Shown here: positions 10,997 through 63,533 of the stretch, piece by piece
Numbering within the stretch: the first letter of the stretch is position 1
Layout: each line of letters starts with the position of its first letter
Virus record (IMG/VR): IMGVR_UViG_3300042940_001739
Length of the DNA: 64,000 nt
Direction: 5' to 3' (one strand)
From: a virus
Lineage: Duplodnaviria > Heunggongvirae > Uroviricota > Caudoviricetes
Notes under the pieces: model-generated
What the model was told of the DNA's origin: nothing
Database searches by the model: none
The model's input: the letters and a program-made list of their open reading frames with translations, nothing else
Made by a program: the position numbers and the translations under genes

Positions 10997-11418
10997 TGAA
11001 AACAATTCCACTAACAATATCACTTTTAGCAACAACGACCATGACATTCATCGGTACATATTTTTATAATCTTACAATGGATTACTCCGATCAGTACTTG
11101 GGGTTGATCGCTGTGGTGTTGTTTGATGGGTTTTTTGGAATTATAGCAGGAACAAAACGAGAGGGCTTTCAAACATGTAAGGCCCTCAAAGTTTTACGTA
11201 CAGCAGTTACATGGGTCATACTTTTAACGGTATTGTTATTAGTCGAAAAAGGTTTTAAAGGTACGTCGTGGTTGAGTGAAACAATATTAGTACCATTCAT
11301 GGTATTTCAGTTATTAAGCGCCTTGAAGAATGCTTCAATGGCTGGTTTTATTAAAACAGAAGTATTAAACCGCATCATGGATGCATTTGACAAACACAAA
11401 GGAGAAAGAACCGAGTGA
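10996..11418 (+). CDS. Multi-pass membrane protein, holin-like
   Basis: Three or four hydrophobic helices in 140 aa, adjacent to lysis genes. Confidence 0.4.
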   Translation: MKTIPLTISLLATTTMTFIGTYFYNLTMDYSDQYLGLIAVVLFDGFFGIIAGTKREGFQTCKALKVLRTAVTWVILLTVLLLVEKGFKGTSWLSETILVPFMVFQLLSALKNASMAGFIKTEVLNRIMDAFDKHKGERTE

Positions 11419-26447: not shown

Positions 26448-26584
26448 TTTTCATAGCTCGAAAAGGAAAAGGAGTGAGCCGTTTAACCTGATAGGCATAA
26501 CGGTTAGTGTGTAAACAGCTCCATTTTTTTATATTTTGGTTGGATATTACTGAATAATTTCATATTATATAGAAAATAAGAGAT

Positions 26585-34845: not shown

Positions 34846-36897
34846 ATGAAACATATACTATTAGCATTAACATTAATGCAATCCATCTTCAGCTACACGC
34901 AGTGTGTAGGAGTACAGTCAGCAACAATTACACCGCCAGCTCCTGCAGGAGGCTATCTACCAAACACTCAAGTAACTGTGTGTTACACGATGGTAGGTTG
35001 GCCTGGATTAAGTGTTGGTGCCAATTGGTTGGAAGGATTTTCTATTACTGCAGGCCCAGGCTGGAATGCACCACAACCAGTTACCGCACCAGCAGATTGT
35101 AATGGGGGAACAACCACAGGATGGTTATGGATGAACTCAGTTACTTCAACAGCAACGGGACAGACTGCAGGGCCAGGATATTTTTATGAAGGACCTACCG
35201 GGCCACAAGACAACAACCCAGGCAATGATTGGGGAGATCAAGGCAATTGTACTTGGACTATGTGTTTCTCAGTTACAACGAAGCAATCATGTTTACCACT
35301 TAACCTCAACCTAGCAGTAACAGCAGGAGCAGATGGAACGTGGGGTTCGTGGTCTAATTCAAGTTGCCCAACAACACCTTACTCAGTATACACAGGAACA
35401 CTCAATGTACCAATCGTAACGGTTGCTAGCACAGTAAAGAAAGACACATGTGGTTTAGGATTAGGATCAATACTAGTAGTACCTAGTTCAACAACATATA
35501 CTGGACCATATACCTATACATGGACTCCTAATGTAGGAAACACAGCATTCATAGGAGGTTTAACGGCAGGAACATACTCAGTTCAAATTGGATATAACAA
35601 CGGATGCATTAAGTCAGCAACATATGTAGTAGGCAATGTTCAACCAACGTATGCAGCAACATCAACCGTTGTATCATGTTATGGAGATGCAACAGGCACA
35701 GCTACCGCAACAATGACACCACCAATTGGAAACATATCTTATAATTGGTCAAACACACAAACAACGCAAACTGCAACGGGACTAGCAGCAGGACCATATA
35801 CATGTACTATTAGCAATACATTGGGATGTACTAGCACAGTACCAGTAACTATAACACAGAACCCTCAACTGCTAATACAGAACTTGTCATTGACTAATGC
35901 AACCTGCGCAGATTCAGATGCTATAATTACATATAACGCAGTAGGAGGCGTCTCTCCTTATCAATATGCACTTAACGGTGTAGGTTCAACAAATAATGAA
36001 GATTCATTAGCAGGAGGCAACTATATTATATATGTACAAGACAATCTAGGATGCAACACTGATAGCACAGTAACATTGTTATCACCAACCGTTATTACTC
36101 CTAGCATTTCTCCTAATGTAACATTGCAATGTACTCCAGGGACATTTATATTTACAAACACATCGACTCCAGCAGTTAACATAGACAGTACTATAGTAAA
36201 TTGGGGTGATGGCAACATAGACACAACCACAACGTACGCACCTATACAGCACGTATACAACACGCCGGGACTTTGGGATATCATTGTATCAACGATTTCT
36301 GATTATGGTTGTGTGTATAGCGATACATTGTATACGTTGGTTGAAACAACTCAGCCGCCAACGGCTCAATTTACTATACAACCTAACCCAACTACTGTAT
36401 ATAATACACACGTGACTTGCGATGATTGGTCGTCAGGAGTGCCTGTGCAATGGTATTGGTCAGCTCCAGGTGCTATACCGATGTCAAGCACACAACTTGA
36501 GCCATGGTTCATGTTCCCAGAAGTAGCCGGCGAACATTACATTACTTTGACAGTAACAGATGCTTATGGTTGTTGGGACACAATAACACACAAGTTCATT
36601 ATAGAAGATGCCATGTTGATATTCGTCCCTAATACATTTACTCCGGGTGGAGCAGATGAATGGAACAATGTATTTCGATGGTCGATACTAGGAATCAATG
36701 AATCAGAATTCTATATGGAAATTTGGAATCGTTGGGGACAAATAATCTGGGAGTCACGAGACCCACACTCATATTGGGATGGAACATGTAATGGGCAACT
36801 AGTACCTGATGGTTCATACAGCTGGGTTATACGAGCAACTAATAAATTAGATGCAGGTAAAAGATCTTTTATAGGAACAATTAACGTTATAAAATAA
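34846..36897 (+). CDS. Secreted repeat-rich protein with T9SS type-B (gliding-motility-associated) C-terminal domain
   Basis: Signal peptide MKHILLALTLMQSIFSYTQ. C-terminus FVPNTFTPGGADEWNNVF...MEIWNRWGQIIWESRD...WDGTCNGQLVPDGSYSWVIRA matches the CHU_C / type-B CTD. Class III motif abuts the ATG. Confidence 0.65.
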   Translation: MKHILLALTLMQSIFSYTQCVGVQSATITPPAPAGGYLPNTQVTVCYTMVGWPGLSVGANWLEGFSITAGPGWNAPQPVTAPADCNGGTTTGWLWMNSVTSTATGQTAGPGYFYEGPTGPQDNNPGNDWGDQGNCTWTMCFSVTTKQSCLPLNLNLAVTAGADGTWGSWSNSSCPTTPYSVYTGTLNVPIVTVASTVKKDTCGLGLGSILVVPSSTTYTGPYTYTWTPNVGNTAFIGGLTAGTYSVQIGYNNGCIKSATYVVGNVQPTYAATSTVVSCYGDATGTATATMTPPIGNISYNWSNTQTTQTATGLAAGPYTCTISNTLGCTSTVPVTITQNPQLLIQNLSLTNATCADSDAIITYNAVGGVSPYQYALNGVGSTNNEDSLAGGNYIIYVQDNLGCNTDSTVTLLSPTVITPSISPNVTLQCTPGTFIFTNTSTPAVNIDSTIVNWGDGNIDTTTTYAPIQHVYNTPGLWDIIVSTISDYGCVYSDTLYTLVETTQPPTAQFTIQPNPTTVYNTHVTCDDWSSGVPVQWYWSAPGAIPMSSTQLEPWFMFPEVAGEHYITLTVTDAYGCWDTITHKFIIEDAMLIFVPNTFTPGGADEWNNVFRWSILGINESEFYMEIWNRWGQIIWESRDPHSYWDGTCNGQLVPDGSYSWVIRATNKLDAGKRSFIGTINVIK

Positions 36898-39149: not shown

Positions 39150-39440
39150 TGATGAAGTTTTTTATGATATATAAAGATACATATAAACTACATTTAGGAA
39201 ACCTGCTCTGGTGGGTTTCATGACTCTGCGCTAATGCGCTCACATCCGCTTCCTTTACAAACTACCAAAACTGAGATAGAACTCAATTGATAGACAGGTT
39301 AAGTACCTAGCGGCGTACAATTGGCTATCGAACGGACTTAGTTTTTGATTTTGTCTTTGCAGTAAGGGAAGGTCTTTGATTTGGCATTTGACTATGATTT
39401 AGTCTATATGCTTTATCATCCAGCAACTCGATATTATTAT
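39150..39440 (+). ncRNA. Candidate non-coding transcript between two terminators
   Basis: ~290 nt with no ORF longer than 24 aa, bounded by the terminators at 39102-39141 and 39441-39467. Internal hairpin gaaacc-tgctctggtg-ggtttc. Confidence 0.25.
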
Positions 39441-39467
39441 GCCCTAGCAGAAATGTTAGGGCTTTTT
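39441..39467 (+). terminator. Rho-independent terminator (gccctagc-agaaat-gttagggc + T5)
   Basis: Conserved hairpin family with the AGAAAT loop. Confidence 0.55.
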
Positions 39468-49561: not shown

Positions 49562-49795
49562 ATGACACTTAAAGAATACATAGAAGGATTACAATTGTTC
49601 GCTAAGGAGAATCCAGATGCATTAGAGTTACAAGTTATTACCGCCGCAGATGATGAAGGCAATGGATACAAGCAAGTTCATTACAGTCCAACGAAAGGAA
49701 ATTATGATAACGATGATGATAGTTTTATTTCAGACGTCTGCTTTGAAGAATGGGACATGGAAGATGCTGAAGTCAACGCAGTCTGTGTAAATTAA
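49562..49795 (+). CDS. Acidic hypothetical small protein
   Basis: ORF only. Confidence 0.25.
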   Translation: MTLKEYIEGLQLFAKENPDALELQVITAADDEGNGYKQVHYSPTKGNYDNDDDSFISDVCFEEWDMEDAEVNAVCVN

Positions 49796-49807
49796 AATAA
49801 CCTCAAA

Positions 49808-49832
49808 GTGTCTGCTTCGGTAGGCACTTTTT
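49808..49832 (+). terminator. Rho-independent terminator (gtgtctgc-ttcg-gtaggcac + T5)
   Basis: 8-bp stem with two G:U pairs, TTCG loop, TTTTTACTG tail. Confidence 0.55.
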
Positions 49833-50272
49833 ACTGGGCGTCCAAACTAAGTAGAAGATTAGCAGTTTACGGATAAGCTTCTAAATAATAATATTGCAAC
49901 GAAGAGTAACGTAACGAATACAACAAGTATTATAAGTATATGTGTTAATAAGAGAACGTAGAGTAAGACTCGAACAAGTAAGTATTTAATTTTACCCTGG
50001 CCCAGCAAGACTCTGGTGTCTAATAGAAAGATGACCTTCATAGATATTGTCAATGTTTCCCAGTATAATATTGATACATTCTATGTATGGTAGTAGAGAA
50101 ACGGTGTCTAGTAAAGGAATGTAAGGATGGTAATGCCCCTTTCAGCCGTTCCTATTTATTTACGCGGGGCATAGACTCTATATTGCCGGCCTCTGAATAT
50201 CAGTAATCCATACAGGCCTAAATGTTCTTAAACGCGAACTAAGAGGCTGGAGATGGAGGAGAGGGTATAGGC

Positions 50273-50550
50273 TATTTTTAGTCCAATACCAACGTATTTT
50301 TAGACGTAAGCACTGATTCTATTTTTAGAAGGATATCCTATTTTTAGATCACGATTCATTTTTAGATGCGTTGTGTCATTATATATAGTATCCTGAATGC
50401 TTCTATTTTTAGACGGATTAGTTCTATTTTTAGAAGCTTATGTGTTATGGGTTCTATTTTTAGACGATTTTTAGAGCAATATGCCGTTATTTTTAGAATC
50501 TATTTTTAGATGCATGCCGCACTTTTAGAACGTATATGCGGTTTTAGTTC
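50273..50550. repeat. Iteron-like array of ~13 direct repeats, core (C)TATTTTTAGA(N)G
   Basis: Copies start at about 50273, 50296, 50319, 50338, 50357, 50403, 50424, 50454, 50466, 50488, 50500, 50520 and 50541. Spacing is mostly 19-23 bp. No ORF. Confidence 0.7.
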
Positions 50551-50600
50551 GGTTTGCTAGCTATTGAGAGACGAAACTTTCCGGAATATTTGCGCGCGTA

Positions 50601-50650
50601 TGGTTGGATTCTAGACATAGATTTCATATTATATAAATGTAAATAAGAAG
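50601..50650 (+). promoter_or_regulatory. Class II promoter-like motif (tGGTTGGATt...TTTCATATTATATAAatgtaaataag) with no protein gene downstream
   Basis: Same bipartite motif as upstream of 26585, 41700, 43089 and 45521. Confidence 0.4.
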
Positions 50651-50940
50651 GAAGGGTTATTATCCAACCAAATGCTGAAAGGCGGCCACAAGGATATTAA
50701 ATATAGATACGTATTGGGAAAGGTCTATCCTATAAACAGAACATGGATCAAACCGGTATGGCAACCACAAGCTACATGTAGCTAACACCGTCATACCATA
50801 AATGTCGGCAGGGTCCGGGAATAACGCGCTCGAAAGACGCACCCGGCGGTCCGACGTTAGGTAAGCTGATCGGGTTTCTCTCTCTTTACCTTGATCGGGT
50901 AGTAGTCCGGGCATCGTTTAGGCGGTGCCTATACTGCTGA
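50650..50940 (+). ncRNA. Candidate structured non-coding RNA (GC-rich island in AT-rich DNA)
   Basis: ~290 nt at roughly 50% GC with imperfect long-range complementarity (gtcggcagggtccggg...cccggcggtccgac). Largest + ORF is 41 aa (50672-50797). Sits downstream of a class II promoter motif and upstream of the first class I promoter. Confidence 0.3.
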
Positions 50941-50967
50941 AAACATTTTCGAAACTTTTTTCCGAAA

Positions 50968-51002
50968 AGATTAGGATCGCATTGATATTATACTTATCTT
51001 TA
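50968..51002 (+). promoter_or_regulatory. Class I bipartite promoter AGATTAGGAT-N15-CTTATCTTTA (copy 1)
   Basis: Exact boxes with 15-bp spacer. ATG of a 51-aa ORF 26 nt downstream. Confidence 0.55.
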
Positions 51003-51027
51003 TATTATTAATTAAAAAGAGAGATAT

Positions 51028-51183
51028 ATGTATAGTTTGAATTGTAGTTATTATGAGAAAGAGTTTACCAGCATCGACGAGTTGTTGGATGATGTAATGT
51101 ATTCGGGCATGGATCCGAATTATGAAATTACCCGTAACGGTGTTAGCACGGGAGAAACGTTAGCAGATTTAATTAGTTATTAA
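51028..51183 (+). CDS. Small acidic hypothetical protein (51 aa)
   Basis: ORF directly behind class I promoter copy 1; below the track's 60-aa cut-off. Confidence 0.3.
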   Translation: MYSLNCSYYEKEFTSIDELLDDVMYSGMDPNYEITRNGVSTGETLADLISY

Positions 51184-51198
51184 TATAAAAAAGAGACT

Positions 51199-51432
51199 AT
51201 GAGTTTAAGAGAAAGATTGATTGCAGTAGGATTTGTACCAGTTGACCTTAAGGCCGGCAATGTTAAGATAGGAGACAACATTGCGAATAATAATATGATA
51301 TTCGGCGAGTTGATTAAAATTACCAAGAAAGGTAATTATGTAGTTCGCTTTGATATGGACTATGCAGATGAAAAGCCGTCAAAGTTTCCACCGGAAGTGT
51401 TTGAAAGATTCTTCCTTGTAGATAAAAGATAA
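51199..51432 (+). CDS. Hypothetical small protein
   Basis: ORF only. Confidence 0.3.
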   Translation: MSLRERLIAVGFVPVDLKAGNVKIGDNIANNNMIFGELIKITKKGNYVVRFDMDYADEKPSKFPPEVFERFFLVDKR

Positions 51433-51457
51433 ACTTTTCTGAAACTTTTCTTGGAAA

Positions 51458-51492
51458 AGATTAGGATCGCATTCTAAAAATGCTTATCTTTA
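51458..51492 (+). promoter_or_regulatory. Class I bipartite promoter (copy 2) plus leader element aagcaattagggaatggtcc
   Basis: Exact boxes with 15-bp spacer. Confidence 0.55.
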
Positions 51493-51535
51493 TTATAAGC
51501 AATTAGGGAATGGTCCTTAATATAAAAAAAGAGAT

Positions 51536-51910
51536 ATGAAAAAAGAAGCAAAAGTAGAATTTGGAATTGTAATTACAAAGCCATGGAGTTCAGAGATGTA
51601 TGCTCACAATGAGCAAGTAGCAGATGTGGTTCGCGAGACGGTATTAGGAATGTGGAATGATGCAATAAATGAATTCCAAGAGGATAAGGGAGAAGAGTTT
51701 ATGTCCGATGTTGAATGGATTTTAGCTCCAGAAAAATTAGAAAACGTCCAAAGAGCTATTACATGTTACGGGTTTGGATATGGATATGATGTAGCAGCAG
51801 TATCTGAAAGAGTAATACAAGAATTAGAAGATGCTCCTTTATTCCGTTTAAAAGAGATAGCAGAAGATTTAGAGATTGAATTAGAAAAAGGGTTTGTTGG
51901 CTTTAGTTAG
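51536..51910 (+). CDS. Hypothetical acidic protein
   Basis: ORF behind class I promoter copy 2. Confidence 0.35.
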   Translation: MKKEAKVEFGIVITKPWSSEMYAHNEQVADVVRETVLGMWNDAINEFQEDKGEEFMSDVEWILAPEKLENVQRAITCYGFGYGYDVAAVSERVIQELEDAPLFRLKEIAEDLEIELEKGFVGFS

Positions 51911-51931
51911 CCAGCAAACTTTTCTGGAAAA

Positions 51932-51966
51932 AGATTAGGATCTGAACATTAAAATGCTTATCTTTA
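51932..51966 (+). promoter_or_regulatory. Class I bipartite promoter (copy 3)
   Basis: Exact boxes with 15-bp spacer. Confidence 0.55.
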
Positions 51967-51978
51967 TAAAAAAAGGCT

Positions 51979-52128
51979 ATGAAAAGATTAAAAGTAAGAA
52001 CCGTAGAGCAACAAATCAAAGAAGGTAAAATTGAGTGCATCACTGACATTAAATTGGGTTATGTTGAAATCCGCAGATGTGCAACCGGTGTGAGAGAAAC
52101 CATTAAAGTTATTCGAAACAAATATTAG
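51979..52128 (+). CDS. Small basic hypothetical protein (49 aa)
   Basis: ORF behind copy 3; below the track cut-off. Confidence 0.3.
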   Translation: MKRLKVRTVEQQIKEGKIECITDIKLGYVEIRRCATGVRETIKVIRNKY

Positions 52129-52156
52129 AAAAAGGTTGTTTCCGAACATTATAATG

Positions 52157-52166
52157 CTTATCTTTA
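52157..52166 (+). promoter_or_regulatory. Degenerate class I promoter (-7 box CTTATCTTTA retained, upstream box diverged)
   Basis: aaaaaggttgtttccgaacattataatgcttatcttta. Confidence 0.35.
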
Positions 52167-52182
52167 TAAAAAAGAAAGAGAT

Positions 52183-52362
52183 ATGAAAAGGAAATTAGAA
52201 TTGCAATTAAGAGCTGAATATAATGTATATCAGGCTAAAGCTCATCCCGAGGATCAAATGTCGTTTATGGATTATGTACAGCAATTAGGCAGATTCCATG
52301 GATTTAAGGTTAATGTAAAAACATCATGGGATTTAGATTATGTAATAACCTTTACAAAATAA
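52183..52362 (+). CDS. Small hypothetical protein (59 aa)
   Basis: ORF behind the degenerate promoter. Confidence 0.3.
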   Translation: MKRKLELQLRAEYNVYQAKAHPEDQMSFMDYVQQLGRFHGFKVNVKTSWDLDYVITFTK

Positions 52363-52439
52363 TTTAAACAAAGTTTGCAAAAAGGTTGGATCGCATTGAT
52401 ATTATCGGTATATTTAAGTATTAATTTAAAAAGAGAGAT

Positions 52440-52700
52440 ATGGAAAGAGAATTTAAGATTGATTTAGTGTTAGCAACGGAGATAGCACAGTTTTTGGAAA
52501 CATTGCTTGAGGCAGAGTTGAATGAGGAATTTGATTCAAGCCGAGCATGTACAGACACTTACCTGGACCAATTTGATCCGAATGGCTTTGTCCCGTTTAA
52601 TCAGCTAATGCAAGCGCTTATTAAAGCCGGCGTGGTAATTCCGCAAATAGCTCCGGAACAAGGCATTGGATTGGATAATTTGCAAAGACGATTCCAGTAA
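52440..52700 (+). CDS. Acidic hypothetical small protein
   Basis: Preceded by the variant promoter aaaaggttggatcgcattgatattatcgg. Confidence 0.3.
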   Translation: MEREFKIDLVLATEIAQFLETLLEAELNEEFDSSRACTDTYLDQFDPNGFVPFNQLMQALIKAGVVIPQIAPEQGIGLDNLQRRFQ

Positions 52701-52724
52701 AAAAGTTTAAAAAAAGTTGCAAAA

Positions 52725-52759
52725 AGATTAGGATTCGAAAGATAAAATGCTTATCTTTA
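52725..52759 (+). promoter_or_regulatory. Class I bipartite promoter (copy 6)
   Basis: Exact boxes with 15-bp spacer. Confidence 0.55.
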
Positions 52760-52778
52760 ATAAAATAAAAAGAGAGAT

Positions 52779-53174
52779 ATGAAAAAAGTAAATTTAGCAG
52801 AACAATTGAATGCGTTTGCATCAGGCAGAATCATTGACAGTGAAGGATCAGAAAATGATTGTTTTAACTTTTATGATTGGTTCTGCAAAGATTCATCATT
52901 AGAGCGCAAAGCAAATGCATTGTTCCCAAAGGTAAAAAAGTTTGTTGCAGCAACTCAAGTTGACATCTTGGATACATATGTGTTCTTTAAAAATAATTGT
53001 CCGATGAATGGACCATTATATGATGATTTCCGTATATGTGATGAGAACGGAGTTTTATTCACAGTAATTCCTAAATGCGGTCATACCGGCAAAGCTGAAA
53101 TATGGGGAAAGAATGATTCCGGCGTATTTGAATGCTTAAAACAAGCAGAAACATTTTCGAAACTTTTCTCCTAA
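52779..53174 (+). CDS. Hypothetical Cys-containing protein
   Basis: ORF behind copy 6. Confidence 0.35.
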   Translation: MKKVNLAEQLNAFASGRIIDSEGSENDCFNFYDWFCKDSSLERKANALFPKVKKFVAATQVDILDTYVFFKNNCPMNGPLYDDFRICDENGVLFTVIPKCGHTGKAEIWGKNDSGVFECLKQAETFSKLFS

Positions 53175-53175
53175 A

Positions 53176-53210
53176 AGATTAGGATTCGAAAGATAAAATG
53201 CTTATCTTTA
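53176..53210 (+). promoter_or_regulatory. Class I bipartite promoter (copy 7) plus leader element aagcagaaagggaaatggttcc
   Basis: Exact boxes with 15-bp spacer. Confidence 0.55.
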
Positions 53211-53255
53211 TATAAGCAGAAAGGGAAATGGTTCCCAATCATAAAAAAGAGAGAA

Positions 53256-53447
53256 ATGGCAATAGGCAAAAAAAATTCAGGAAAGTTTCAGCAAGATGCA
53301 GTAATTGGTCAATTTGCAAGAGATGCACGTAGAGCAAGAGAAATTAGTCCAATCGTTAAAGCAGCTTTAGCAGCAGGAGAGCGCAACCGAATCTACCGCG
53401 CAGAGCAAGAAGCTAAGGCTAAATTGAATCCGCGCTTCGTAAGATGA
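53256..53447 (+). CDS. Small basic hypothetical protein
   Basis: ORF behind copy 7. Confidence 0.3.
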   Translation: MAIGKKNSGKFQQDAVIGQFARDARRAREISPIVKAALAAGERNRIYRAEQEAKAKLNPRFVR

Positions 53448-53542
53448 TAATGGCGGCGATAGGTATCACGATGGCGGCGATAGTCGTAACGGGATTAGTA
53501 GCATCAATAGTATCAATAATAGATTCACGTAAATAAAGAGAG

Positions 53543-54283
53543 ATGGCAAAAAGAATTCATGTAAGCACCGGAGCTATAGTAGCAACAGCAGAGAGCACAA
53601 CGCAGTATATGCGTGAGATTAAAAAGTTAGCAACCTTGACACGAGAGCAAGAGATTGAGTTAGCAAACCAAATCCAAGCGGGAGACACACGCGCTATGAA
53701 TAAATTGGTTGAGTCTAATTTGCGATTTGCGATCCAGGTAGCTAAGCAATATCAAGGTATGGGATTGCAGTTAGAAGACCTTATTGGGTTCGCTAATGTA
53801 GGATTGTTTGAAGCCGCTGAGCGTTTCGACCCAACTAAAGGCGTCAAGTTTATTACCTTTGCAGTATGGTATATCAGAGCCGAGCTTCAGAAGGCACTCA
53901 ATGATTTGTCCCGTGTTGTAAGGATCCCATCACACCGTACGGCAACTGAGGAGTATTCAACCAAGAGTATTTCAACTCCGGTAGGCGATGATGATAACAA
54001 AGAGACTTATGCGGATCGCTTCTTAGAAGCTGAGGCAACACGATCAGGCAGAGACCGCGCGGACATGACATTTGATATCAATCGAGCATTGAGTCAATTG
54101 AAGCCTAAGCAAGAAGAAGCCATTCGTCGCAATTATGGGATCGGTATGGAGTATGCTCAGAGCATGGAGCAGATTGGTGAAGAGATGGGCATCACAAATG
54201 AGCGCGCTCGTCAATTGGTCCGTCAAGCTGAGATTGCATTAGCAGGCTTACCAGGCATCAAGCTATTGGAACAATACCTGTAA
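53543..54283 (+). CDS. Sigma-70-family RNA polymerase sigma factor (phage-encoded)
   Basis: Region 2 (LRFAIQVAKQYQGMGLQLEDLIGFANVGLFEAAERFDPTKGVKFITFAVWYIRAEL) and region 4 HTH (SMEQIGEEMGITNERARQLVRQAE). Confidence 0.7.
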   Translation: MAKRIHVSTGAIVATAESTTQYMREIKKLATLTREQEIELANQIQAGDTRAMNKLVESNLRFAIQVAKQYQGMGLQLEDLIGFANVGLFEAAERFDPTKGVKFITFAVWYIRAELQKALNDLSRVVRIPSHRTATEEYSTKSISTPVGDDDNKETYADRFLEAEATRSGRDRADMTFDINRALSQLKPKQEEAIRRNYGIGMEYAQSMEQIGEEMGITNERARQLVRQAEIALAGLPGIKLLEQYL

Positions 54284-54307
54284 CATTTCTGAAAAAAAGT
54301 TTCAAAA

Positions 54308-54342
54308 AGATTAGGATTCGAACATTATTATACTTATCTTTA
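54308..54342 (+). promoter_or_regulatory. Class I bipartite promoter (copy 8) plus leader element aagcaattagggaaaggtcc
   Basis: Exact boxes with 15-bp spacer. Confidence 0.55.
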
Positions 54343-54387
54343 TTATAAGCAATTAGGGAAAGGTCCTTAATTTAAAACCAAAGAGAG

Positions 54388-54510
54388 ATGAGAGATTTTT
54401 TAACATTAGCATCAGTAGCAGTAGGAGGAATCCTTTTAGCAGGAGGTAACGACTTAGGAATATTGTTTGTATTCCCGGGAATTATTTACACAATCAGAAC
54501 CGCAGAATGA
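54388..54510 (+). CDS. Tiny membrane protein (40 aa)
   Basis: Hydrophobic LASVAVGGILLAGG...ILFVFPGIIY; behind copy 8. Confidence 0.25.
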   Translation: MRDFLTLASVAVGGILLAGGNDLGILFVFPGIIYTIRTAE

Positions 54511-54611
54511 TACCAGAAGGATTCACACCGGAGGAGTTTAAGCGCGTAGTGACTCAAGCAACCTTAGCTGTAAGCGCATTGATATATGTTGAACTTTATA
54601 ATTAAGAGACG

Positions 54612-54758
54612 ATGAAAAGAGAGATGAAGCCGTTAGAAGAAAAGATCAAAGCATTGAGATCAATCATGGAGTATTGGGAGTGTTTCTTCCAAGATGATGA
54701 AGTAGGCCAAGCATTAGCTGAGGTTGAAGCAGAATTAGACAAGTTCCGATTCAAGTAA
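54612..54758 (+). CDS. Small hypothetical protein (48 aa)
   Basis: ORF only. Confidence 0.2.
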   Translation: MKREMKPLEEKIKALRSIMEYWECFFQDDEVGQALAEVEAELDKFRFK

Positions 54759-54782
54759 AAAAGTTTCAAAAAAGTTCCAAAA

Positions 54783-54817
54783 AGATTAGGATCCTATCAT
54801 TATTAACCTTATCTTTA
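54783..54817 (+). promoter_or_regulatory. Class I bipartite promoter (copy 9)
   Basis: Exact boxes with 15-bp spacer. Confidence 0.55.
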
Positions 54818-54838
54818 ATAAAATAAAAAGAGAAAGAT

Positions 54839-55051
54839 ATGTTAAAAGACGCAATCGCATTATTAAGTCAGTTCGGATTAGTTGATGGTAACACATTACC
54901 AGACTCGACGCCAGGCACACAGTATCAATTTAGAAGTTGTTCTCCGAACCTAATAGTACCAGCACCAGGTATGAAAACAGTTATATCAGGCCTTTTAAAG
55001 GATCATGGGTACACGGTTAAAGCAATCGGAACAATGTTAAAATTAGTTTAA
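54839..55051 (+). CDS. Hypothetical small protein
   Basis: ORF behind copy 9. Confidence 0.3.
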   Translation: MLKDAIALLSQFGLVDGNTLPDSTPGTQYQFRSCSPNLIVPAPGMKTVISGLLKDHGYTVKAIGTMLKLV

Positions 55052-55076
55052 AAAAAGTTTAAAAAAAGTTACCAAA

Positions 55077-55111
55077 AGATTAGGATCGCATCATTATTAT
55101 CCTTATCTTTA
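55077..55111 (+). promoter_or_regulatory. Class I bipartite promoter (copy 10) plus leader element aaggaagttagggaatagtccc
   Basis: Exact boxes with 15-bp spacer. Confidence 0.55.
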
Positions 55112-55165
55112 TTATAAGGAAGTTAGGGAATAGTCCCACAGTTTAAAAACCAAAAAAGAGAGATT

Positions 55166-55582
55166 ATGAAAAAAATTGAATTGATTGCAAAGTTAGAAGG
55201 CGCTAAAGAATTGACGTCAGTAGTATCGATCGACTTAGTATTGACAGCATTAAGTATGTTGGAAGACGAAGCTCCAAAAGGCTTCAGCCTCAAAGGCGCG
55301 CAGTTTGACTTGTTAATGGACAAGATCCAAAGTGCCGTAGACCAAATGGACCGACGCGAGTTGATAGATAAAGACTCCGCGGAGTTTGAGTTAGATTGGA
55401 ATAATGTAGTTAGCTTAAGTGATGTATCAGTCGACTTTGATTATGTATACAATAGCATCCGCGACGAGTTGGAGGAGCTTGTTGAAGACGAAGAAGAAGA
55501 TGAGGAAGCTGAAGCAGACGAAGAAGGTCCTGTTTATCCTGAGGAGTTAGATGAGTTAGCTGAATTAGACATAGAAGAATAA
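55166..55582 (+). CDS. Hypothetical protein with poly-acidic C-terminus
   Basis: EELVEDEEEDEEAEADEEG tail. Confidence 0.35.
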   Translation: MKKIELIAKLEGAKELTSVVSIDLVLTALSMLEDEAPKGFSLKGAQFDLLMDKIQSAVDQMDRRELIDKDSAEFELDWNNVVSLSDVSVDFDYVYNSIRDELEELVEDEEEDEEAEADEEGPVYPEELDELAELDIEE

Positions 55583-55602
55583 GATATATCTCTCAGTCCA
55601 AA

Positions 55603-55624
55603 GCCCTAGCAGAAATGTTAGGGC
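55603..55624 (+). other. Conserved hairpin gccctagc-agaaat-gttagggc (third copy, no T-run)
   Basis: Identical to the terminator hairpin at 39441. Confidence 0.5.
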
Positions 55625-55647
55625 ATTAGGACGTAAAAAAAGAGATA

Positions 55648-55797
55648 TGATAAGAAGCAAAAAAGAAATCCAGGACGCAAATGCATTATTAATAGCAATG
55701 CACGTATTCATTGTAGCCAATAACATGAAGCATCTATTCGGCGATGCACTCAATACAATTGGAGCCGCAATTGCTGAAATCCACCAGGAAAAATAAT
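55648..55797 (+). CDS. Small hypothetical protein (49 aa)
   Basis: ORF only. Confidence 0.2.
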
Positions 55798-55815
55798 TGA
55801 AACTTTTCTTGAAAA

Positions 55816-55850
55816 AGATTAGGTTAATTGAAATAAAATGCTTATCTTTA
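55816..55850 (+). promoter_or_regulatory. Class I bipartite promoter (copy 11, upstream box AGATTAGGTT) plus leader element aagcagaaagggaaaggccc
   Basis: 15-bp spacer conserved. Confidence 0.5.
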
Positions 55851-55895
55851 TATAAGCAGAAAGGGAAAGGCCCAAGACGCATTTATAATTAAATC

Positions 55896-56852
55896 ATGAG
55901 AGAGATGATGAACGTATTTGAACCAGTAAGAGTAAAAGGTAAATTAGTAGCAAAAAATGTTAAGTCAGGAGAGATTGCAGGAAAAGATTTGATCCGACAC
56001 ATTCAATTGCTTAATGCAGAAAAGAATCGTCAGTTGTTAATGGTTGCTCCAAACGGCAGAGTAACAAGACTTGATAGTACCACAACAAGCTCAACACCAT
56101 CAGCACCTAGCAAGATGTCATTCATGTCAGTAGTTGAGACTAGAGATCCTGAGACAATGTTTGGCAACTTGGAGCGTCTGACTAAAATGGTAGGGCGAGG
56201 CATTCAACCATCATTGGTCATCACAGGTATGGCAGGTGTCGGCAAGACGCACCTTGTTAAAGAGACACTAAAGCAAATGGGCTTGAAGGAGTCATATGAC
56301 TTTGAGCATTTCAAAGGTAAAGCAACCGCGGCAGGTTTGTATATGACATTGTATGCTAACTCAGACAAGATTGTAGTATTAGATGATTGTGATTCAGTAT
56401 TCAAAGATGATGATGCAGTCAATATCCTTAAGGCGGCACTTGACTCATATGACACTCGTCAGATCTCATATATCTCAACGAAGCCTTTGAAAGATGAGTT
56501 TGGCGAACCGATCCCATCACGCTTTGAGTTCACAGGTAAGATCATTTTTATCTCAAACATCAACCAAAGCAAATTAGATGAGGCGATCCGTAGCCGTAGC
56601 TTTGTAGCAGACATTAGCATGAACACTGAGCAAATGTTTACAAGAATGGAGCAGTTGTTACCTACCATGGAGTCACGTATTCCATTAGCGGCAAAGCAAC
56701 AAGCATTAGATGTTATGAAGGCGCTCCACGCTAAGTATGACGGAGTAGACATCAACCTAAGAAGTTTTATCAAAGCATCACGAATTGCGGCGATGGGCTT
56801 CCCGGCAGATGAAGTAGAGAATTTAATTGCAGAGCAGATCATCGCGGCATAA
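55896..56852 (+). CDS. P-loop NTPase (AAA-like ATPase)
   Basis: Walker A VITGMAGVGKTHL and Walker B KIVVLDDCD. Confidence 0.5.
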   Translation: MREMMNVFEPVRVKGKLVAKNVKSGEIAGKDLIRHIQLLNAEKNRQLLMVAPNGRVTRLDSTTTSSTPSAPSKMSFMSVVETRDPETMFGNLERLTKMVGRGIQPSLVITGMAGVGKTHLVKETLKQMGLKESYDFEHFKGKATAAGLYMTLYANSDKIVVLDDCDSVFKDDDAVNILKAALDSYDTRQISYISTKPLKDEFGEPIPSRFEFTGKIIFISNINQSKLDEAIRSRSFVADISMNTEQMFTRMEQLLPTMESRIPLAAKQQALDVMKALHAKYDGVDINLRSFIKASRIAAMGFPADEVENLIAEQIIAA

Positions 56853-56928
56853 GACATATCATATCTCTCAATATGAAAGAGGCCGGCATCGAAAGGTGTC
56901 GGTTTCTACTGTAAAATAAATCAAACAA

Positions 56929-56963
56929 ATCGGCAAAAAGATTAGGATCCTATCCCGATAAAC
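56929..56963 (+). promoter_or_regulatory. Class I bipartite promoter (copy 12) plus leader element tagcaattagggaaaggccc
   Basis: Exact boxes with 15-bp spacer. Confidence 0.55.
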
Positions 56964-57025
56964 CTTATCTTTATATATAGCAATTAGGGAAAGGCCCTAA
57001 GCTTAATTAACTAATAAGAGAGAGT

Positions 57026-57226
57026 ATGACAAAAGTAAAAGAGTTTGTAGCAGCAGAGTTAAAAGGATTAGAGAGAAGCTTCATTGCAACTCCAGACCGC
57101 AGAGAGTACCTAGAGTCATTTGCAAAAGCAAATCAAGGAAGCATGGACTTAGTGCTAATGCAAATGGCAATTCAATTCGGAGCCAAGCTAGCATTAGAGA
57201 ATGTACAAGAGTTATTAGGTAAGTAG
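57026..57226 (+). CDS. Hypothetical small protein
   Basis: ORF behind copy 12. Confidence 0.3.
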   Translation: MTKVKEFVAAELKGLERSFIATPDRREYLESFAKANQGSMDLVLMQMAIQFGAKLALENVQELLGK

Positions 57227-57249
57227 TATTAATATATAACAAGAGAGAC

Positions 57250-57486
57250 ATGACAAAGAAAGAGATGATCCAAAACATTCAGAAGCTAGAAGCAATATTC
57301 TTTTTGAATGCAAAGCAATTAGAATTAGACTATGGCAAAGACGAGCCAATGTATCGTTCAGCAATTAACAAATGGTTAGGAGTCAACATGTTGATGCAAG
57401 ACTTAGACATTGATGGAGATTGGTCATTGCCAGAAGCTAGGGAAGCAGCAGACTTGATATGCCTTATATCCAAGAAGCGAGCCTAA
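57250..57486 (+). CDS. Hypothetical small protein
   Basis: ORF only. Confidence 0.3.
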   Translation: MTKKEMIQNIQKLEAIFFLNAKQLELDYGKDEPMYRSAINKWLGVNMLMQDLDIDGDWSLPEAREAADLICLISKKRA

Positions 57487-57506
57487 GCCAAATATAGCCA
57501 GAACAT

Positions 57507-57533
57507 GGGGGGAGTAATAGCCCCCCTTTTTTT
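57507..57533 (+). terminator. Rho-independent terminator GGGGGG-agtaatag-CCCCCC + T7
   Basis: Perfect 6-bp G:C stem plus T7. Confidence 0.65.
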
Positions 57534-57580
57534 GTGGGGTAGCCCCCCTAGTATAGACCCCTTTGACCCCCCATGATTTA

Positions 57581-57609
57581 GGGGGGTGGGGGAGGGTTTC
57601 GTTAAGGGG
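57581..57609 (+). other. G-quadruplex-type motif GGGGGGTGGGGGAGGGTTTCGTTAAGGGG
   Basis: Four G-runs of at least 3, with loops of 1, 1 and 9 nt. Embedded in a region of G and C homopolymer tracts (57507-57625). Confidence 0.4.
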
Positions 57610-57815
57610 TAGAACACCCCCATCTAGATAGTGGTGCTAATATATGTTTTTCTAGCGCGGGAAGATTTTTTGCTGAGGGAGAAGACTCTTTATTGTATAT
57701 GGCGGTGCCATAGAGCTATTATTAATATATAGTACGTTTCGGAGCCTCCCTACGCTAACGCTTCAGTCAGCACCTCACGTAGCCACCAAATTAACGATCT
57801 CCGATATTTATTAAT

Positions 57816-58310
57816 ATGATAAAGATGAAACACATCCTGCAGGAAATTGGAGAAGCTACGTTAGAGCCATATGCATATCGCATCAACTTCACAATAAACC
57901 AAGCACACTTTCGCACAGATGCAGCAACCCAATACGAAGTTGACTTTCGTACGGACGTCCAGGGTGTAATGGAAATACACTTTGCGGTAATAGATGATTC
58001 CGGAAGACCAGATCAATACACAGAAACAAATGAAGGGGTAACTTTGCGTGTTATGTCAACCATCACATCTATCATAAAAAAAGCAGTAGCGCGGTTATCC
58101 CCTCGCGAGATTGTAATATCAGCTGCTAAATCAGATCAACGTCGTATGCGTTTATATCGTCAATATATTGCTAAGCATTTAACGGGCTATGACGAAGTGG
58201 CATCTGATGCGGCTTGGTCTACATATAAAAAGACTCCTAAATTTGATTTAATGGGAATATGGAAGCGAAGCACACAATATGATGCTACGGGAATCAAGGA
58301 TGCACAATGA
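57816..58310 (+). CDS. CTS-family protein 1 (MIKMKHILQE...), hypothetical
   Basis: N-terminal MIxxKxILxE. C-terminal QYDATGIKDAQ shared with the next gene. Class III motif abuts the ATG. Confidence 0.45.
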   Translation: MIKMKHILQEIGEATLEPYAYRINFTINQAHFRTDAATQYEVDFRTDVQGVMEIHFAVIDDSGRPDQYTETNEGVTLRVMSTITSIIKKAVARLSPREIVISAAKSDQRRMRLYRQYIAKHLTGYDEVASDAAWSTYKKTPKFDLMGIWKRSTQYDATGIKDAQ

Positions 58311-63347: not shown

Positions 63348-63533
63348 ATGACATCACAAGAAATCTATGAAGCAATGGAAGCACATTGGTTAACATTTAA
63401 AGAAAACCATGATCGCTTTCAAGAAAAACAAGTTAAAGCTGCAGGCGTTAGAGCTCGCAAATCAATTAATGAGATGAAAAAATTAGTTAGCAAATATCGT
63501 TCAACTCAATTAGCAGAAGCAAAAGCAGCATAA
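63348..63533 (+). CDS. Hypothetical small protein
   Basis: Class III motif gatatttattaatat 25 nt upstream. Confidence 0.3.
   Translation: MTSQEIYEAMEAHWLTFKENHDRFQEKQVKAAGVRARKSINEMKKLVSKYRSTQLAEAKAA

What the first reader, a model, noticed from the sequence alone, without database searches (positions are those of the whole stretch)
50950..57030. Twelve copies of a fixed-spacing bipartite promoter (AGATTAGGAT-N15-CTTATCTTTA) drive a module of ~17 small genes that includes a phage sigma factor
The boxes AGATTAGGAT and CTTATCTTTA recur with an invariant 15-bp spacer. Upstream-box starts are 50968, 51458, 51932, 52725, 53176, 54308, 54783, 55077, 55816 and 56929, with degenerate copies at 52157 and 52383. 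Each sits 25-65 nt upstream of a small ORF and is often preceded by GAAACTTTTC(nnn)AAAAG. Reading TTaG as the -33 element and TAtcTTTA as the -7 element matches the Bacteroidetes sigma-A consensus (TTTG-N19-21-TAnnTTTG). These are plausibly strong host-RNAP early promoters for host-takeover genes. The module encodes its own sigma-70-family factor (53543..54283) and a P-loop ATPase (55896..56852), as expected for an early-to-middle transcriptional switch.
Basis: partly seen in the sequence, partly recalled or inferred. Interest (0 to 1): 0.75.

Follow-up and report, generated by a model that had tools for sequence, protein, structure and literature searches.

The report
Early promoter array of a Bacteroidota phage
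A 6.5-kb stretch of an uncultured freshwater phage carries twelve near-identical copies of what is most likely a strong host-type (Bacteroidota) promoter, driving 17 mostly tiny genes plus the phage's own sigma factor: a familiar early-gene design, here in a host phylum where it has apparently not been described.

Summary
AGATTAGGAT-N15-CTTATCTTTA occurs 10 times (9 exact, 1 with one mismatch), all on the + strand between 50968 and 56973, against 0 expected. Two variant copies at 52132 and 52382 still fit a generic Bacteroidota promoter pattern. All twelve are intergenic, 12-54 nt upstream of an ATG.

The phage encodes proteins with type IX secretion sorting domains and almost no Shine-Dalgarno sites, so its host is Bacteroidota.

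About 300 copies in more than 60 related metagenomic loci show this pattern of constraint:
- T-12, A-11, T-8, T-7, T-6 and A-5 are nearly invariant.
- Positions -10 and -9 vary, but not to G.
- The -33 box varies around T-W-G-R-M, with its G at a fixed distance.

This is the shape of the Bacteroidota sigma-A -33/-7 promoter (TTTG / TAnnTTTG). The one departure is A in place of G at -5.

The other 58 kb of the window has no such intergenic site. It uses two other motifs: GGTTGGAT-N17-TATTATATAG and ATATTTATTAATATGATAA.

Best reading: these are strong early promoters for host RNA polymerase. They switch on a phage sigma factor that probably reads the second motif. No transcription data exist. 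This is a new member of a known kind, comparable to the T4 and SPO1 early regions.

The parts
50968..51002 (+). Class 1 promoter copy 1 (exact). ATG of the 51-aa ORF lies 25 nt downstream.
51458..51492 (+). Class 1 promoter copy 2 (exact). Long leader with a hairpin, then the 124-aa ORF.
51932..51966 (+). Class 1 promoter copy 3 (exact). ATG 12 nt downstream.
52132..52166 (+). Class 1 variant. The upstream box is AAGGTTGTTT and the downstream box CTTATCTTTA is exact. It still fits TTG-N20-TAtcTTTA.
52382..52416 (+). Class 1 variant. The upstream box is AAGGTTGGAT and the downstream box is GGTATATTTA (TAtaTTTA). Its spacer is identical to that of copy 1.
52725..52759 (+). Class 1 promoter copy (exact), upstream of the 131-aa ORF.
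53176..53210 (+). Class 1 promoter copy (exact). It heads the operon of the 63-aa ORF, a possible 30-aa ORF and the sigma factor gene.
54308..54342 (+). Class 1 promoter copy (exact). Leader with a hairpin.
54783..54817 (+). Class 1 promoter copy (exact).
55077..55111 (+). Class 1 promoter copy (exact), upstream of the acidic 138-aa ORF.
55816..55850 (+). Class 1 promoter copy (one mismatch: AGATTAGGTT), upstream of the ATPase gene.
56939..56973 (+). Class 1 promoter copy (exact).
51028..57486 (+). Early gene module of 17 called genes: 51, 77, 124, 49, 59, 86, 131, 63, 246, 40, 48, 70, 138, 49, 318, 66 and 78 aa. In relatives the conserved ordered core is the 63-aa ORF, sigma, the 138-aa ORF, the ATPase and the 78-aa ORF. 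The other ORFs are patchy and change order.
53543..54283 (+). Phage sigma-70-family factor, 246 aa. It has regions 1.2, 2, 3.2 and 4, and lacks regions 1.1 and 3.0/3.1.
55896..56852 (+). AAA/STAND-type P-loop ATPase, about 33% identical to T4 NrdC.10 over about 150 aa.
57507..57533 (+). Terminator-like site that closes the module: a 6-bp all-G:C stem followed by a T7 run.
56979..57003 (+). Best example of the small hairpin near the 5' end of the long leaders (GGGA-loop-UCCC core). Others are at 51502-51521, 53219-53240, 54351-54372, 55126-55137 and 55863-55873.
50602..50636 (+). Class 2 promoter-like site (GGTTGGAT-N17-TATTATATAA) just upstream of the array. This position is conserved in relatives.
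26538..26572 (+). Exact class 2 site (GGTTGGAT-N17-TATTATATAG). Other class 2 sites are at 912, 14378, 25245, 39468, 41653, 43041 and 45473. They lie in front of the exonuclease, AAA ATPase, 703-aa protein/GroEL and DNA ligase blocks.

Best explanation
The twelve sites are strong early promoters read by the unmodified host RNA polymerase carrying the Bacteroidota primary sigma factor.

How each unit is built:
- Phased A/T tracts at about -60 to -40, which look like an UP element.
- A -33 element T-W-G-R-M; in this phage it is usually TTAGGA.
- An A/T-rich stretch around -18.
- A -7 element, C-T-T-A-T-C-T-T-T-A, which reads as T-12 A-11 t c T-8 T-7 T-6 A-5.

Predicted transcripts. Transcription should start about 4-5 nt after the box. 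That gives either a leader of about 17 nt or a leader of 40-50 nt that begins with a small hairpin. Both end in an A-rich translation start without a Shine-Dalgarno site (AAAAAGAGAGATATG).

The proposed cascade:
1. Transcription runs rightward through 17 genes to the terminator at 57507.
2. One early product is a phage sigma factor.
3. That factor most likely redirects the core enzyme to the second motif class (GGTTGGAT-N17-TATTATATAG), which precedes the DNA-metabolism and chaperonin genes.
4. A third motif (ATATTTATTAATATGATAA) marks a further class.

Shown here: the motif, its statistics, its placement, its conservation profile, the host phylum and the sigma domains.

Inferred, not shown: which holoenzyme reads which class, the timing and the start sites.
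For: Motif and placement.
- There are 10 strict copies against 0 expected, all on the + strand and all intergenic.
- They are the only intergenic matches to a generic -33/-7 pattern in 64 kb, 12 of 12.
- An ATG lies within about 60 nt of the box in 228 of 239 unique instances across relatives.

Host phylum. T9SS type A and type B sorting domains, SprB repeats and Ig_7 are encoded. Shine-Dalgarno cores are rare and translation starts are A-rich.

Constraint profile. In 96 near-consensus variants the mismatches fall at -9 (75), -10 (31) and -14 (19). None fall at -12, and there are 2-6 at each of -11, -8, -7, -6 and -5. G is almost never seen at -10 or -9. This matches TAHHTTTG with a weak -33 and an A/T-rich -18 in F. 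johnsoniae (PMC6847099; spacer composition).

Upstream-box flavours (TTAGGAT, CTAGGAC, GTAGGAT, TTGACAC, TTGGATC, TTTGG) coexist within single phages, with the G fixed 20 nt from the TA.

Conservation. The boxes stay exact while the genes around them drop to 70-80% nucleotide identity. Relatives whose sigma factor is 54-62% identical use CTTATATTTA. One relative with a 41%-identical sigma factor has TTTG-N20-TAtcTTTG.

Independence from the phage sigma factor. Very divergent phages carry the same design in front of larger genes and an apparent tRNA gene (by eye; not checked with a tRNA finder). Their ligase is 26-36% identical. No sigma factor of this family and no exact class 2 site was found in them.

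Logic of the cascade. The sigma gene is itself behind a class 1 site. The remaining 58 kb uses class 2 (8 sites against 0.1 expected) and class 3 (6 against 0.69).

Precedent. T4 early promoters likewise show extra consensus beyond the host elements (PMC2988021).
Against: - There are no transcription data of any kind.
- A at -5 is invariant here, whereas G-5 is nearly invariant in F. johnsoniae promoters.
- C-14, T-13 and, within a lineage, the -10/-9 bases are more uniform than host recognition alone requires.
- The most common -33 flavour (TTAGGA) is not the published TTTG.
- A class 2 site lies just upstream of the array (50602) and could supply a first dose of sigma factor by read-through. 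A self-amplifying circuit that depends on the phage sigma factor is therefore not excluded.
- Absence of the sigma factor from the divergent phages rests on 5-kb flanks and on a peptide-pattern scan of limited sensitivity.
- The host is inferred, not known.
Confidence: 0.72

Rival explanations
1. The sites are read by host core polymerase carrying the phage's own sigma factor. This would be a middle or self-amplifying class. The first sigma factor would come from read-through from the class 2 site at 50602, which would then be the true host-type early promoter.
For: - The sigma gene lies in the module and its DNA-binding helices are invariant in 24 relatives.
- The box is more uniform than a host consensus demands.
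- A class 2 site precedes the array in several lineages.
- Class 2 looks like a classical -35/-10 promoter (TTGGAT-N17-TATTAT).
Against: - The host is Bacteroidota. Classical -35/-10 promoters are reported not to work there, and T-8, T-6 and G-5 are nearly invariant in host promoters. Class 2 has A-8, A-6 and T-5.
- The constraint profile of class 1 copies the host -7 element.
- A sigma factor devoted to small variable ORFs and to itself, while ligase, exonuclease and GroEL run on host promoters, would invert the usual phage logic.
- Divergent phages show class 1 without a detectable sigma factor or class 2 sites.
Confidence: 0.13
2. Host polymerase reads the -7 box, but the conserved upstream box (AGATTAGGAT) is the site of a separate DNA-binding protein. 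That protein would be an injected or early activator or repressor, comparable to the MotA box of T4 middle promoters. Alternatively the two boxes together form an operator for a dimer.
For: - The upstream box is 10 bp long and differs from the published -33 consensus.
- The two boxes are partly inverted copies of each other (AAAGATtAGG / CCTtATCTTT). This produced the - strand hit.
Against: - Six upstream flavours coexist within single phages and share only T-W-G-R-M. No single sequence-specific binder fits them all.
- The dyad symmetry disappears in the TTGACAC and TTGGATC flavours.
- The half-site centres would be about 26 bp apart, on opposite faces of the helix.
Confidence: 0.07
3. The repeats matter mainly as recombination substrates that shuffle small gene cassettes, as PeSL elements do in T4-type phages. 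On this view promoter activity is secondary.
For: Accessory ORFs between the repeats are patchy and change order among relatives, while a five-gene core keeps its order. PeSL elements give a precedent (PMC4122927; PMC2839356).
Against: - Selection acts base by base on the boxes while the 15-nt spacer drifts, which recombination alone does not explain.
- The fixed orientation and the fixed distance to the ATG are promoter properties.
- This reading is compatible with the main one rather than an alternative to it.
Confidence: 0.05

Closest known systems
Bacteroidota primary-sigma (sigma-ABfr) promoters: -33 TTTG / -7 TAnnTTTG (TAHHTTTG in F. johnsoniae)
   Same: - The geometry is the same: the G of the -33 box lies 20 nt before the TA.
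- T-12, A-11, T-8, T-7 and T-6 are nearly invariant.
- Positions -10 and -9 are free but avoid G.
- The -33 element is weaker and variable.
- The region around -18 is A/T-rich.
   Different: - A replaces G at -5 in essentially every copy of this lineage. G appears only in a distant relative.
- C-14 and T-13 are also conserved.
- The commonest -33 flavour is TTAGGA.
- The exact 20-base motif occurs in only three contigs of 185,579 species genomes. All three are short metagenome-bin contigs that carry genes of this phage family.
T4 early promoters and PeSL cassettes
   Same: - Many closely spaced, near-identical promoters in front of small ORFs of unknown function.
- Consensus that extends beyond the host elements, plus UP-like tracts.
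- Accessory ORFs between the repeats are shuffled among relatives.
- The module even holds a homologue of T4 NrdC.10.
   Different: - The host phylum and the promoter grammar differ.
- Most units lack the terminator stem-loop that defines a PeSL.
- The switch factor here is a sigma-70-family protein, not AsiA/MotA.
Bacillus phage SPO1 host-takeover module and gp28
   Same: Early genes are transcribed by the host primary-sigma holoenzyme. A phage sigma factor made early then redirects the core enzyme to a different promoter consensus (PMC13401047 abstract). That SPO1 has a cluster of small early genes each with its own strong promoter is from my own knowledge, not checked here.
   Different: There is no sequence relationship. 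The dependence of class 2 on the phage sigma factor is only inferred here.
phiEco32 / 7-11 type phages with their own sigma factor
   Same: A phage-encoded sigma-family protein is used for temporal control (PMC8948821 abstract).
   Different: [quoted passage not shown] From my own knowledge, not checked here, their sigma factor is small and ECF-like and the hosts are enterobacteria. This one keeps regions 1.2, 2, 3.2 and 4 and scores best against RpoS/RpoD models.

Membership tests
Bacteroidota sigma-A (-33/-7) promoter | -7 element with T-12, A-11, T-8, T-7, T-6 and G-5 | tested here: inconclusive
   Five of the six positions are met and nearly invariant. Position -5 is A in this window and in its close relatives. 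G appears at -5 in a relative with a 41%-identical sigma factor.
Bacteroidota sigma-A (-33/-7) promoter | Positions -10 and -9 variable but not G (TAHHTTTG) | tested here: met
   Of 152 mismatches in 96 near-consensus variants, 106 fall at -10 or -9. Only one of those is a G.
Bacteroidota sigma-A (-33/-7) promoter | -33 element TTTG or TTG, 19-21 nt upstream of the TA | tested here: met
   The element is T-W-G with its G fixed 20 nt from the TA. Flavours include TTTGG and TTGACA.
Bacteroidota sigma-A (-33/-7) promoter | The host belongs to the Bacteroidota | tested here: met
   T9SS type A sorting domain (TIGR04183, 37.8 bits against a cut-off of 23), CHU_C type B signal (PF13585, 45.5 against 27), SprB repeats and Ig_7. 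A Shine-Dalgarno core is present in 17 of 92 genes. This is an inference from phage genes; no host was identified.
Bacteroidota sigma-A (-33/-7) promoter | Initiation by the sigma-A holoenzyme a few nt downstream of the -7 element | not testable with these tools
   Needs 5'-end mapping or in vitro transcription.
Phage early promoter class (T4 Pe type) | Active immediately after infection without phage protein synthesis | not testable with these tools
   No expression data are available.
Phage early promoter class (T4 Pe type) | Strong match to host elements, with UP-like tracts and extra consensus, clustered before small ORFs | tested here: met
   Comparison with T4.
PeSL mobile regulatory cassette | Composite of a terminator stem-loop followed by an early promoter | tested here: not met
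   The terminator scan found none on the + strand inside the array. By eye, terminator-like hairpins precede only the 55647 ORF and the 56939 promoter copy. Hairpins, where present, lie downstream of the promoter in the leader.
PeSL mobile regulatory cassette | Repeats flank ORFs that are gained, lost or swapped between relatives | tested here: met
   Presence/absence and order matrix of the 17 genes in 37 loci. Exact breakpoints were not mapped.
Classical sigma-70 -35/-10 promoter (TTGACA-N17-TATAAT) | At least 9 of 12 matches to the two hexamers at 16-18 nt spacing | tested here: not met
   The consensus scan lists none of the ten strict copies and shows no enrichment in the region, 25 found against 28.5 expected. 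Read this way, the copies are TTAGGA-N18-TATCTT, or 7 of 12.
Sigma-70 family (the 53543-54283 product) | Regions 2 and 4 present | tested here: met
   PF04542 at 53.6 bits, PF04545 at 32.7 bits and PF00140 at 40 bits, all above their cut-offs. Alignments to solved RpoS, SigA and RpoD chains.
SPO1-type sigma cascade | A distinct promoter consensus for the genes outside the early module | tested here: met
   Class 2 has 8 sites against 0.10 expected and class 3 has 6 against 0.69, all on the + strand and upstream of genes. Class 2 is conserved in relatives.
SPO1-type sigma cascade | Those promoters depend on the phage sigma factor | not testable with these tools
   Only indirect support. Glu585, Arg588 and Gln589 of the -35-reading helix are kept, and Arg584, Gln437 and Thr440 are changed.

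The most novel reading that the evidence does not exclude
An abundant, uncultured lineage of freshwater Bacteroidota phages runs a three-tier promoter cascade.

1. Host-type -33/-7 'super-promoters' switch on a compact phage sigma factor (regions 1.2, 2, 3.2 and 4).
2. That factor reads a classical-looking -35/-10 motif (GGTTGGAT-N17-TATTATATAG). The host's own divergent primary sigma factor cannot use this motif, so the phage brings an orthogonal transcription code into the phylum.
3. A third motif that contains the start codon (ATATTTATTAATATG) drives leaderless late messages.
Probability: 0.4. Interest if true: 0.65.

Novelty: new member of a known kind. Interest (0 to 1): 0.45.

Why it matters
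- It would be a rare sequence-level definition of temporal promoter classes for a phage of the Bacteroidota, a phylum whose transcription and translation signals differ from those of the model bacteria. My literature searches found no earlier description.
- About 300 natural variants amount to a ready-made mutational scan of a strong -33/-7 promoter. This could supply promoters for Flavobacterium and Bacteroides genetics.
- The phage sigma factor and the class 2 motif are a candidate orthogonal expression pair.
- The lineage is common in lake metagenomes: more than 1,200 sigma homologues were found, and the best 120 are all at least 73% identical.
- The design itself is expected from T4 and SPO1, so a specialist would find it useful and tidy rather than surprising.

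Tried and rejected
- Near-identity DNA search of the region against 50,697 phage records found no match.
- Cellulophaga phage phi4:1 was the best hit for the DNA ligase (52%). I fetched it whole and compared it. Only 3 of 113 window genes match and it lacks the motifs, so it is neither a relative nor a guide to the host.
- The scan of bacterial genomes for the motif returned three short metagenome-bin contigs, assigned to Flavobacteriales, Helicobacteraceae and Chloroflexota. They carry genes of this phage family and look mis-binned, so they give no host.
- The operator/dimer-site idea, prompted by the partial dyad symmetry, was dropped because the symmetry is absent in the other upstream flavours.
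- I tested whether sigma-factor residues co-vary with the upstream-box flavour. The recognition helices are invariant while the flavours mix within single phages, so the test does not discriminate.
- I looked for a solved or described Bacteroidota primary sigma factor for a residue-by-residue comparison. None was found among solved structures or in the searched papers. The homologue list was saturated by the phage family.
- Rfam found nothing in the non-coding stretches at 49700-51000 and 57400-57900.
- Leader hairpins are individually weak, with z-scores of -0.7 to -2.4.
- PHROG and Pfam searches of the small early proteins found nothing.
- One of my own scripts had an off-by-one anchor. It was redone. 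A counting expression returned zeros and was ignored.

Full report
**1. The observation**

The pattern AGATTAGGAT-N15-CTTATCTTTA has ten + strand matches with at most one mismatch. They start at 50968, 51458, 51932, 52725, 53176, 54308, 54783, 55077, 55816 and 56939. Dinucleotide-preserving shuffles gave none.

A weight matrix built from these copies was scanned over all 64 kb. It recovered them, two weaker sites (52132, 52382) and nothing else on the + strand.

Its 52157 is the downstream box of the 52132 copy.

The conserved block is longer than stated. AAAAG precedes the first box. A/T tracts (GAAACTTTTC or AAAAAGTTT, often twice) lie further upstream. TA is favoured 3-4 nt after the second box.

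All twelve sites are intergenic and lie 12-54 nt before an ATG.

Gene calls on identical metagenome contigs give 17 genes from 51028 to 57486. Among them are a protein with sigma-70 regions 1.2, 2 and 4 and an AAA/STAND-type ATPase. A terminator-like site, a six-pair all-G:C stem followed by a T7 run, at 57507-57533 closes the block.

**2. What the window is**

Every ORF of 150 aa or more is on the + strand. The window encodes:
- glycosyltransferases, a GroEL, a DNA ligase, an RNA ligase, an exonuclease and a lysozyme-type protein;
- five tRNAs.

It is a large phage known only from JGI lake metagenomes, with contigs up to about 98-150 kb. No isolated phage is close.

The host phylum can be inferred.
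- Two proteins end in type IX secretion sorting domains. One is type A (TIGR04183, 37.8 bits against a cut-off of 23; PF18962). The other is type B, CHU_C (PF13585, 45.5 against 27).
- One of them carries SprB repeats. A third protein carries the CHU_C-associated Ig domain.
- From general knowledge, that secretion system is confined to the Bacteroidota and close allies, so these proteins only make sense in such a host.
- In agreement, only 17 of 92 genes have a Shine-Dalgarno core, and the region before start codons is A-rich. This is as described for F. johnsoniae (PMC6847099).
- GroEL, ligase and other best hits lean to Bacteroides, Flavobacterium, Cellulophaga, Maribacter and Prevotella phages.

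**3. Relatives**

The exact 20-base motif was found in 58 stretches of about 45 viral contigs. It was also found in three short metagenome-bin contigs that carry the same phage genes.

Coding sequence in these relatives is only 70-80% identical to the window at the nucleotide level. Their sigma factors are 63-81% identical in protein. The boxes are nevertheless unchanged, which indicates strong purifying selection.

Anchoring on the downstream box alone gave 239 unique instances. An ATG lies within about 60 nt of the box in 228 of them, in two groups near 22 nt and near 42-54 nt.

The downstream box is essentially constant. The upstream box comes in flavours: GATTAGGAT, TGCTAGGAC, AGGTAGGAT, GGTTGACAC, GGTTGGATC and GATTTGG. 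These coexist within single phages and share T-W-G-R-M, with the G always 20 nt from the TA of TAtcTTTA.

Anchoring on the upstream element instead gave 207 exact and 96 near-exact downstream boxes. Of the 152 mismatches in the near-exact set:
- 75 are at -9, 31 at -10 and 19 at -14;
- none is at -12, and 2-6 fall at each of -11, -8, -7, -6 and -5;
- only one is a G at -10 or -9.

The spacer from -23 to -16 is almost free of G and C.

Lineages whose sigma factor is 54-62% identical use CTTATATTTA throughout, with up to 17 copies in 6.7 kb. A contig with a 41%-identical sigma factor carries TTTG-N20-TAtcTTTG.

**4. Comparison with host promoters**

For F. johnsoniae, Baez et al. report the following (PMC6847099):
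- T-12, A-11, T-8, T-7, T-6 and G-5 are nearly invariant.
- There is virtually no G at -10 or -9.
- The -33 element is much weaker.
- A/T-rich motifs sit near -18 and -28.
- Classical E. coli promoters are not used in this phylum.

The profile measured here has the same shape. The single exception is A at -5.

A generic pattern, T[TA]G-N19-21-TA[not G][not G]TTT[AG], hits the + strand 19 times. The 12 intergenic hits are exactly the twelve sites. The other 7 lie in sequence my simple gene caller scores as coding, one of them (50431) on a questionable 47-aa ORF in the iteron array.

So host-type promoters are confined to this 6-kb module. The classical -35/-10 scan sees no enrichment and none of the strict copies.

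**5. The rest of the window uses other signals**

Class 2 is GGTTGGAT-N17-TAT(T/A)ATATAG(A)AAA.
- It has 8 sites against 0.10 expected, all on the + strand (a further copy at 912 appears).
- It often follows a terminator directly.
- The ATG lies about 16 nt after the second box.
- It precedes the exonuclease, the AAA ATPase, the 703-aa protein/GroEL block and the DNA ligase.
- Its first box is constant in relatives.
- Its second box (T-12 A-11 t t A-8 T-7 A-6 T-5) lacks three of the positions the host factor requires.

Class 3 is ATATTTATTAATAT(G/A)ATAA.
- It has 6 sites against 0.69 expected; 5 of these are strong copies.
- In three cases the ATG inside the motif is the start codon.

The phage sigma factor aligns with primary and RpoS-type factors.
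- It lacks regions 1.1 and 3.0/3.1.
- It keeps the residues equivalent to E. coli Glu585, Arg588 and Gln589.
- It changes Arg584, Gln437 and Thr440. The numbering and the roles of these residues are from my own knowledge of sigma-70.

I therefore assign class 1 to the host holoenzyme and, more tentatively, class 2 to the phage sigma factor. The sigma gene sits behind the class 1 site at 53176. If class 1 needed that protein, the system could not start.

Further support comes from very divergent phages (ligase 26-36% identical). They carry the same class 1 design in front of larger genes and what by eye looks like a tRNA gene; I did not run a tRNA finder on those loci. No sigma factor of this family was found in their flanks or in a collection-wide scan, and they have no exact class 2 site. 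That absence rests on partial data.

**6. Other features of the units**

Long leaders usually begin with a small hairpin (GGGA-loop-UCCC).
- Variants are compensated, such as GGCA...UGCC.
- An unrelated stem pair surrounds a conserved GCCAUAAG loop in two distant phages.
- Individually the hairpins are weak, -4.6 to -8.7 kcal/mol with z-scores of -0.7 to -2.4.
- A role in protecting the 5' end from decay is plausible but untested.

Among relatives, a core of the 63-aa ORF, sigma, the acidic 138-aa ORF, the ATPase and the 78-aa ORF keeps its order. The other small ORFs are patchy and rearranged. This recalls PeSL-mediated shuffling in T4-type phages (PMC4122927), although the defining upstream terminator stem-loop is mostly missing.

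Ten small early proteins have no PHROG match, and six of those ten also had no Pfam match; five of the 17 genes were never scanned. The ATPase resembles T4 NrdC.10.

**7. Alternatives**

- A class dependent on the phage sigma factor and primed from the class 2 site at 50602 is not excluded. It conflicts with the host-like constraint profile and with usual phage logic.
- A separate binder for the upstream box conflicts with the coexistence of six flavours and with the loss of dyad symmetry in some of them.
- A recombination role is compatible with promoter function, not a rival to it.

**8. Verdict**

This is an array of strong host-type early promoters in a Bacteroidota phage, with a phage sigma factor among its products.

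It is a new member of a known kind. T4 early promoters have 'additional regions of consensus' beyond the host elements (PMC2988021). SPO1 uses host sigma-A first and phage sigma factors later (PMC13401047).

The unexplained points are the invariant A at -5, the uniformity of C-14 and T-13, and the TTAGGA flavour.

Confidence in the host-polymerase reading is 0.72. Interest is 0.45.

Noticed in passing
window 912, 14378, 25245, 26538, 39468, 41653, 43041, 45473, 50602: A second promoter-like motif, GGTTGGAT-N17-TAT(T/A)ATATAG. There are 8 pattern matches against 0.1 expected, plus one more seen by eye, all on the + strand. It often follows a terminator (TTTTTTACTGTTCGGTTGG), with the ATG about 16 nt after it. 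It is conserved in relatives and is a candidate target of the phage sigma factor.
   Followed up: partly
window 23682, 34834, 57804, 60577, 63310: A third motif, ATATTTATTAATAT(G/A)ATAA, with 6 matches against 0.69 expected, all on the + strand. In three cases the ATG inside the motif is the start codon, which suggests leaderless, possibly late, messages.
   Followed up: partly
window 50273-50510: Eleven direct copies of (T/C/G)ATTTTTAGA, eight of them exact, at irregular spacing of 11-47 nt. They sit in a non-coding stretch just upstream of the early module. There are no exact copies elsewhere in the window, and the array is conserved in relatives. It could be an origin or a protein-binding array.
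   Followed up: partly
window 50640-50950: About 300 nt of relatively G+C-rich sequence with no + strand ORF, lying between the class 2 site at 50602 and the first class 1 promoter. It contains a 46-nt piece (50804-50849) that is 85-96% identical in relatives. There is no Rfam match. It may be a non-coding RNA.
   Followed up: partly
window 57534-57815: A non-coding stretch after the early terminator, full of G runs and C runs (GGGGGG, CCCCCC). It is about 75-82% identical in many relatives. There is no credible Rfam match and its function is unknown.
   Followed up: partly
window 11415-13337, 15967-17715, 34846-36897: Phage-encoded proteins carry type IX secretion sorting domains (type A and CHU_C type B), SprB repeats, cohesin, C-type lectin and Ig_7 domains. 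The phage appears to send its own proteins through the host's secretion system to the cell surface.
   Followed up: partly
window 55593-55614, about 39437-39460, about 872-895: A recurring hairpin with a conserved loop region (GCCCTAGCAGAAATGTTAGGGC and variants). Two copies are followed by a T run and look like terminators. The copy inside the early module has no T run.
   Followed up: no
early-module start codons, e.g. 51015-51030, 52427-52442, 52766-52781: A near-identical translation start, AAAAAGAGAGATATG, precedes most early genes, and AAUAAGAGAUAUG does so in relatives. It is not a classical Shine-Dalgarno site. Some long leaders in relatives carry a decayed copy ending in ATA instead of ATG.
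   Followed up: partly
window 53256-53447 and 55166-55582: A basic 63-aa protein always sits just upstream of the sigma gene, and an acidic-tailed 138-aa protein follows it in nearly all relatives. Neither matches any family. They could be partners or modulators of the sigma switch.
   Followed up: no
window 63348-63533: A 61-aa protein matches the histone H1-like Hc1 family (PF07432, 41.6 bits). It is conserved even in the very divergent phages that share the class 1 promoter.
   Followed up: no
L140 (IMGVR_UViG_3300006802_000089) 848, 2131, 5042: Another repeated intergenic unit occurs in a relative, AAAAAGG-GTTATCTTTT-N13-GGTTATATTAATATAAG. It may be a further promoter variant.
   Followed up: no
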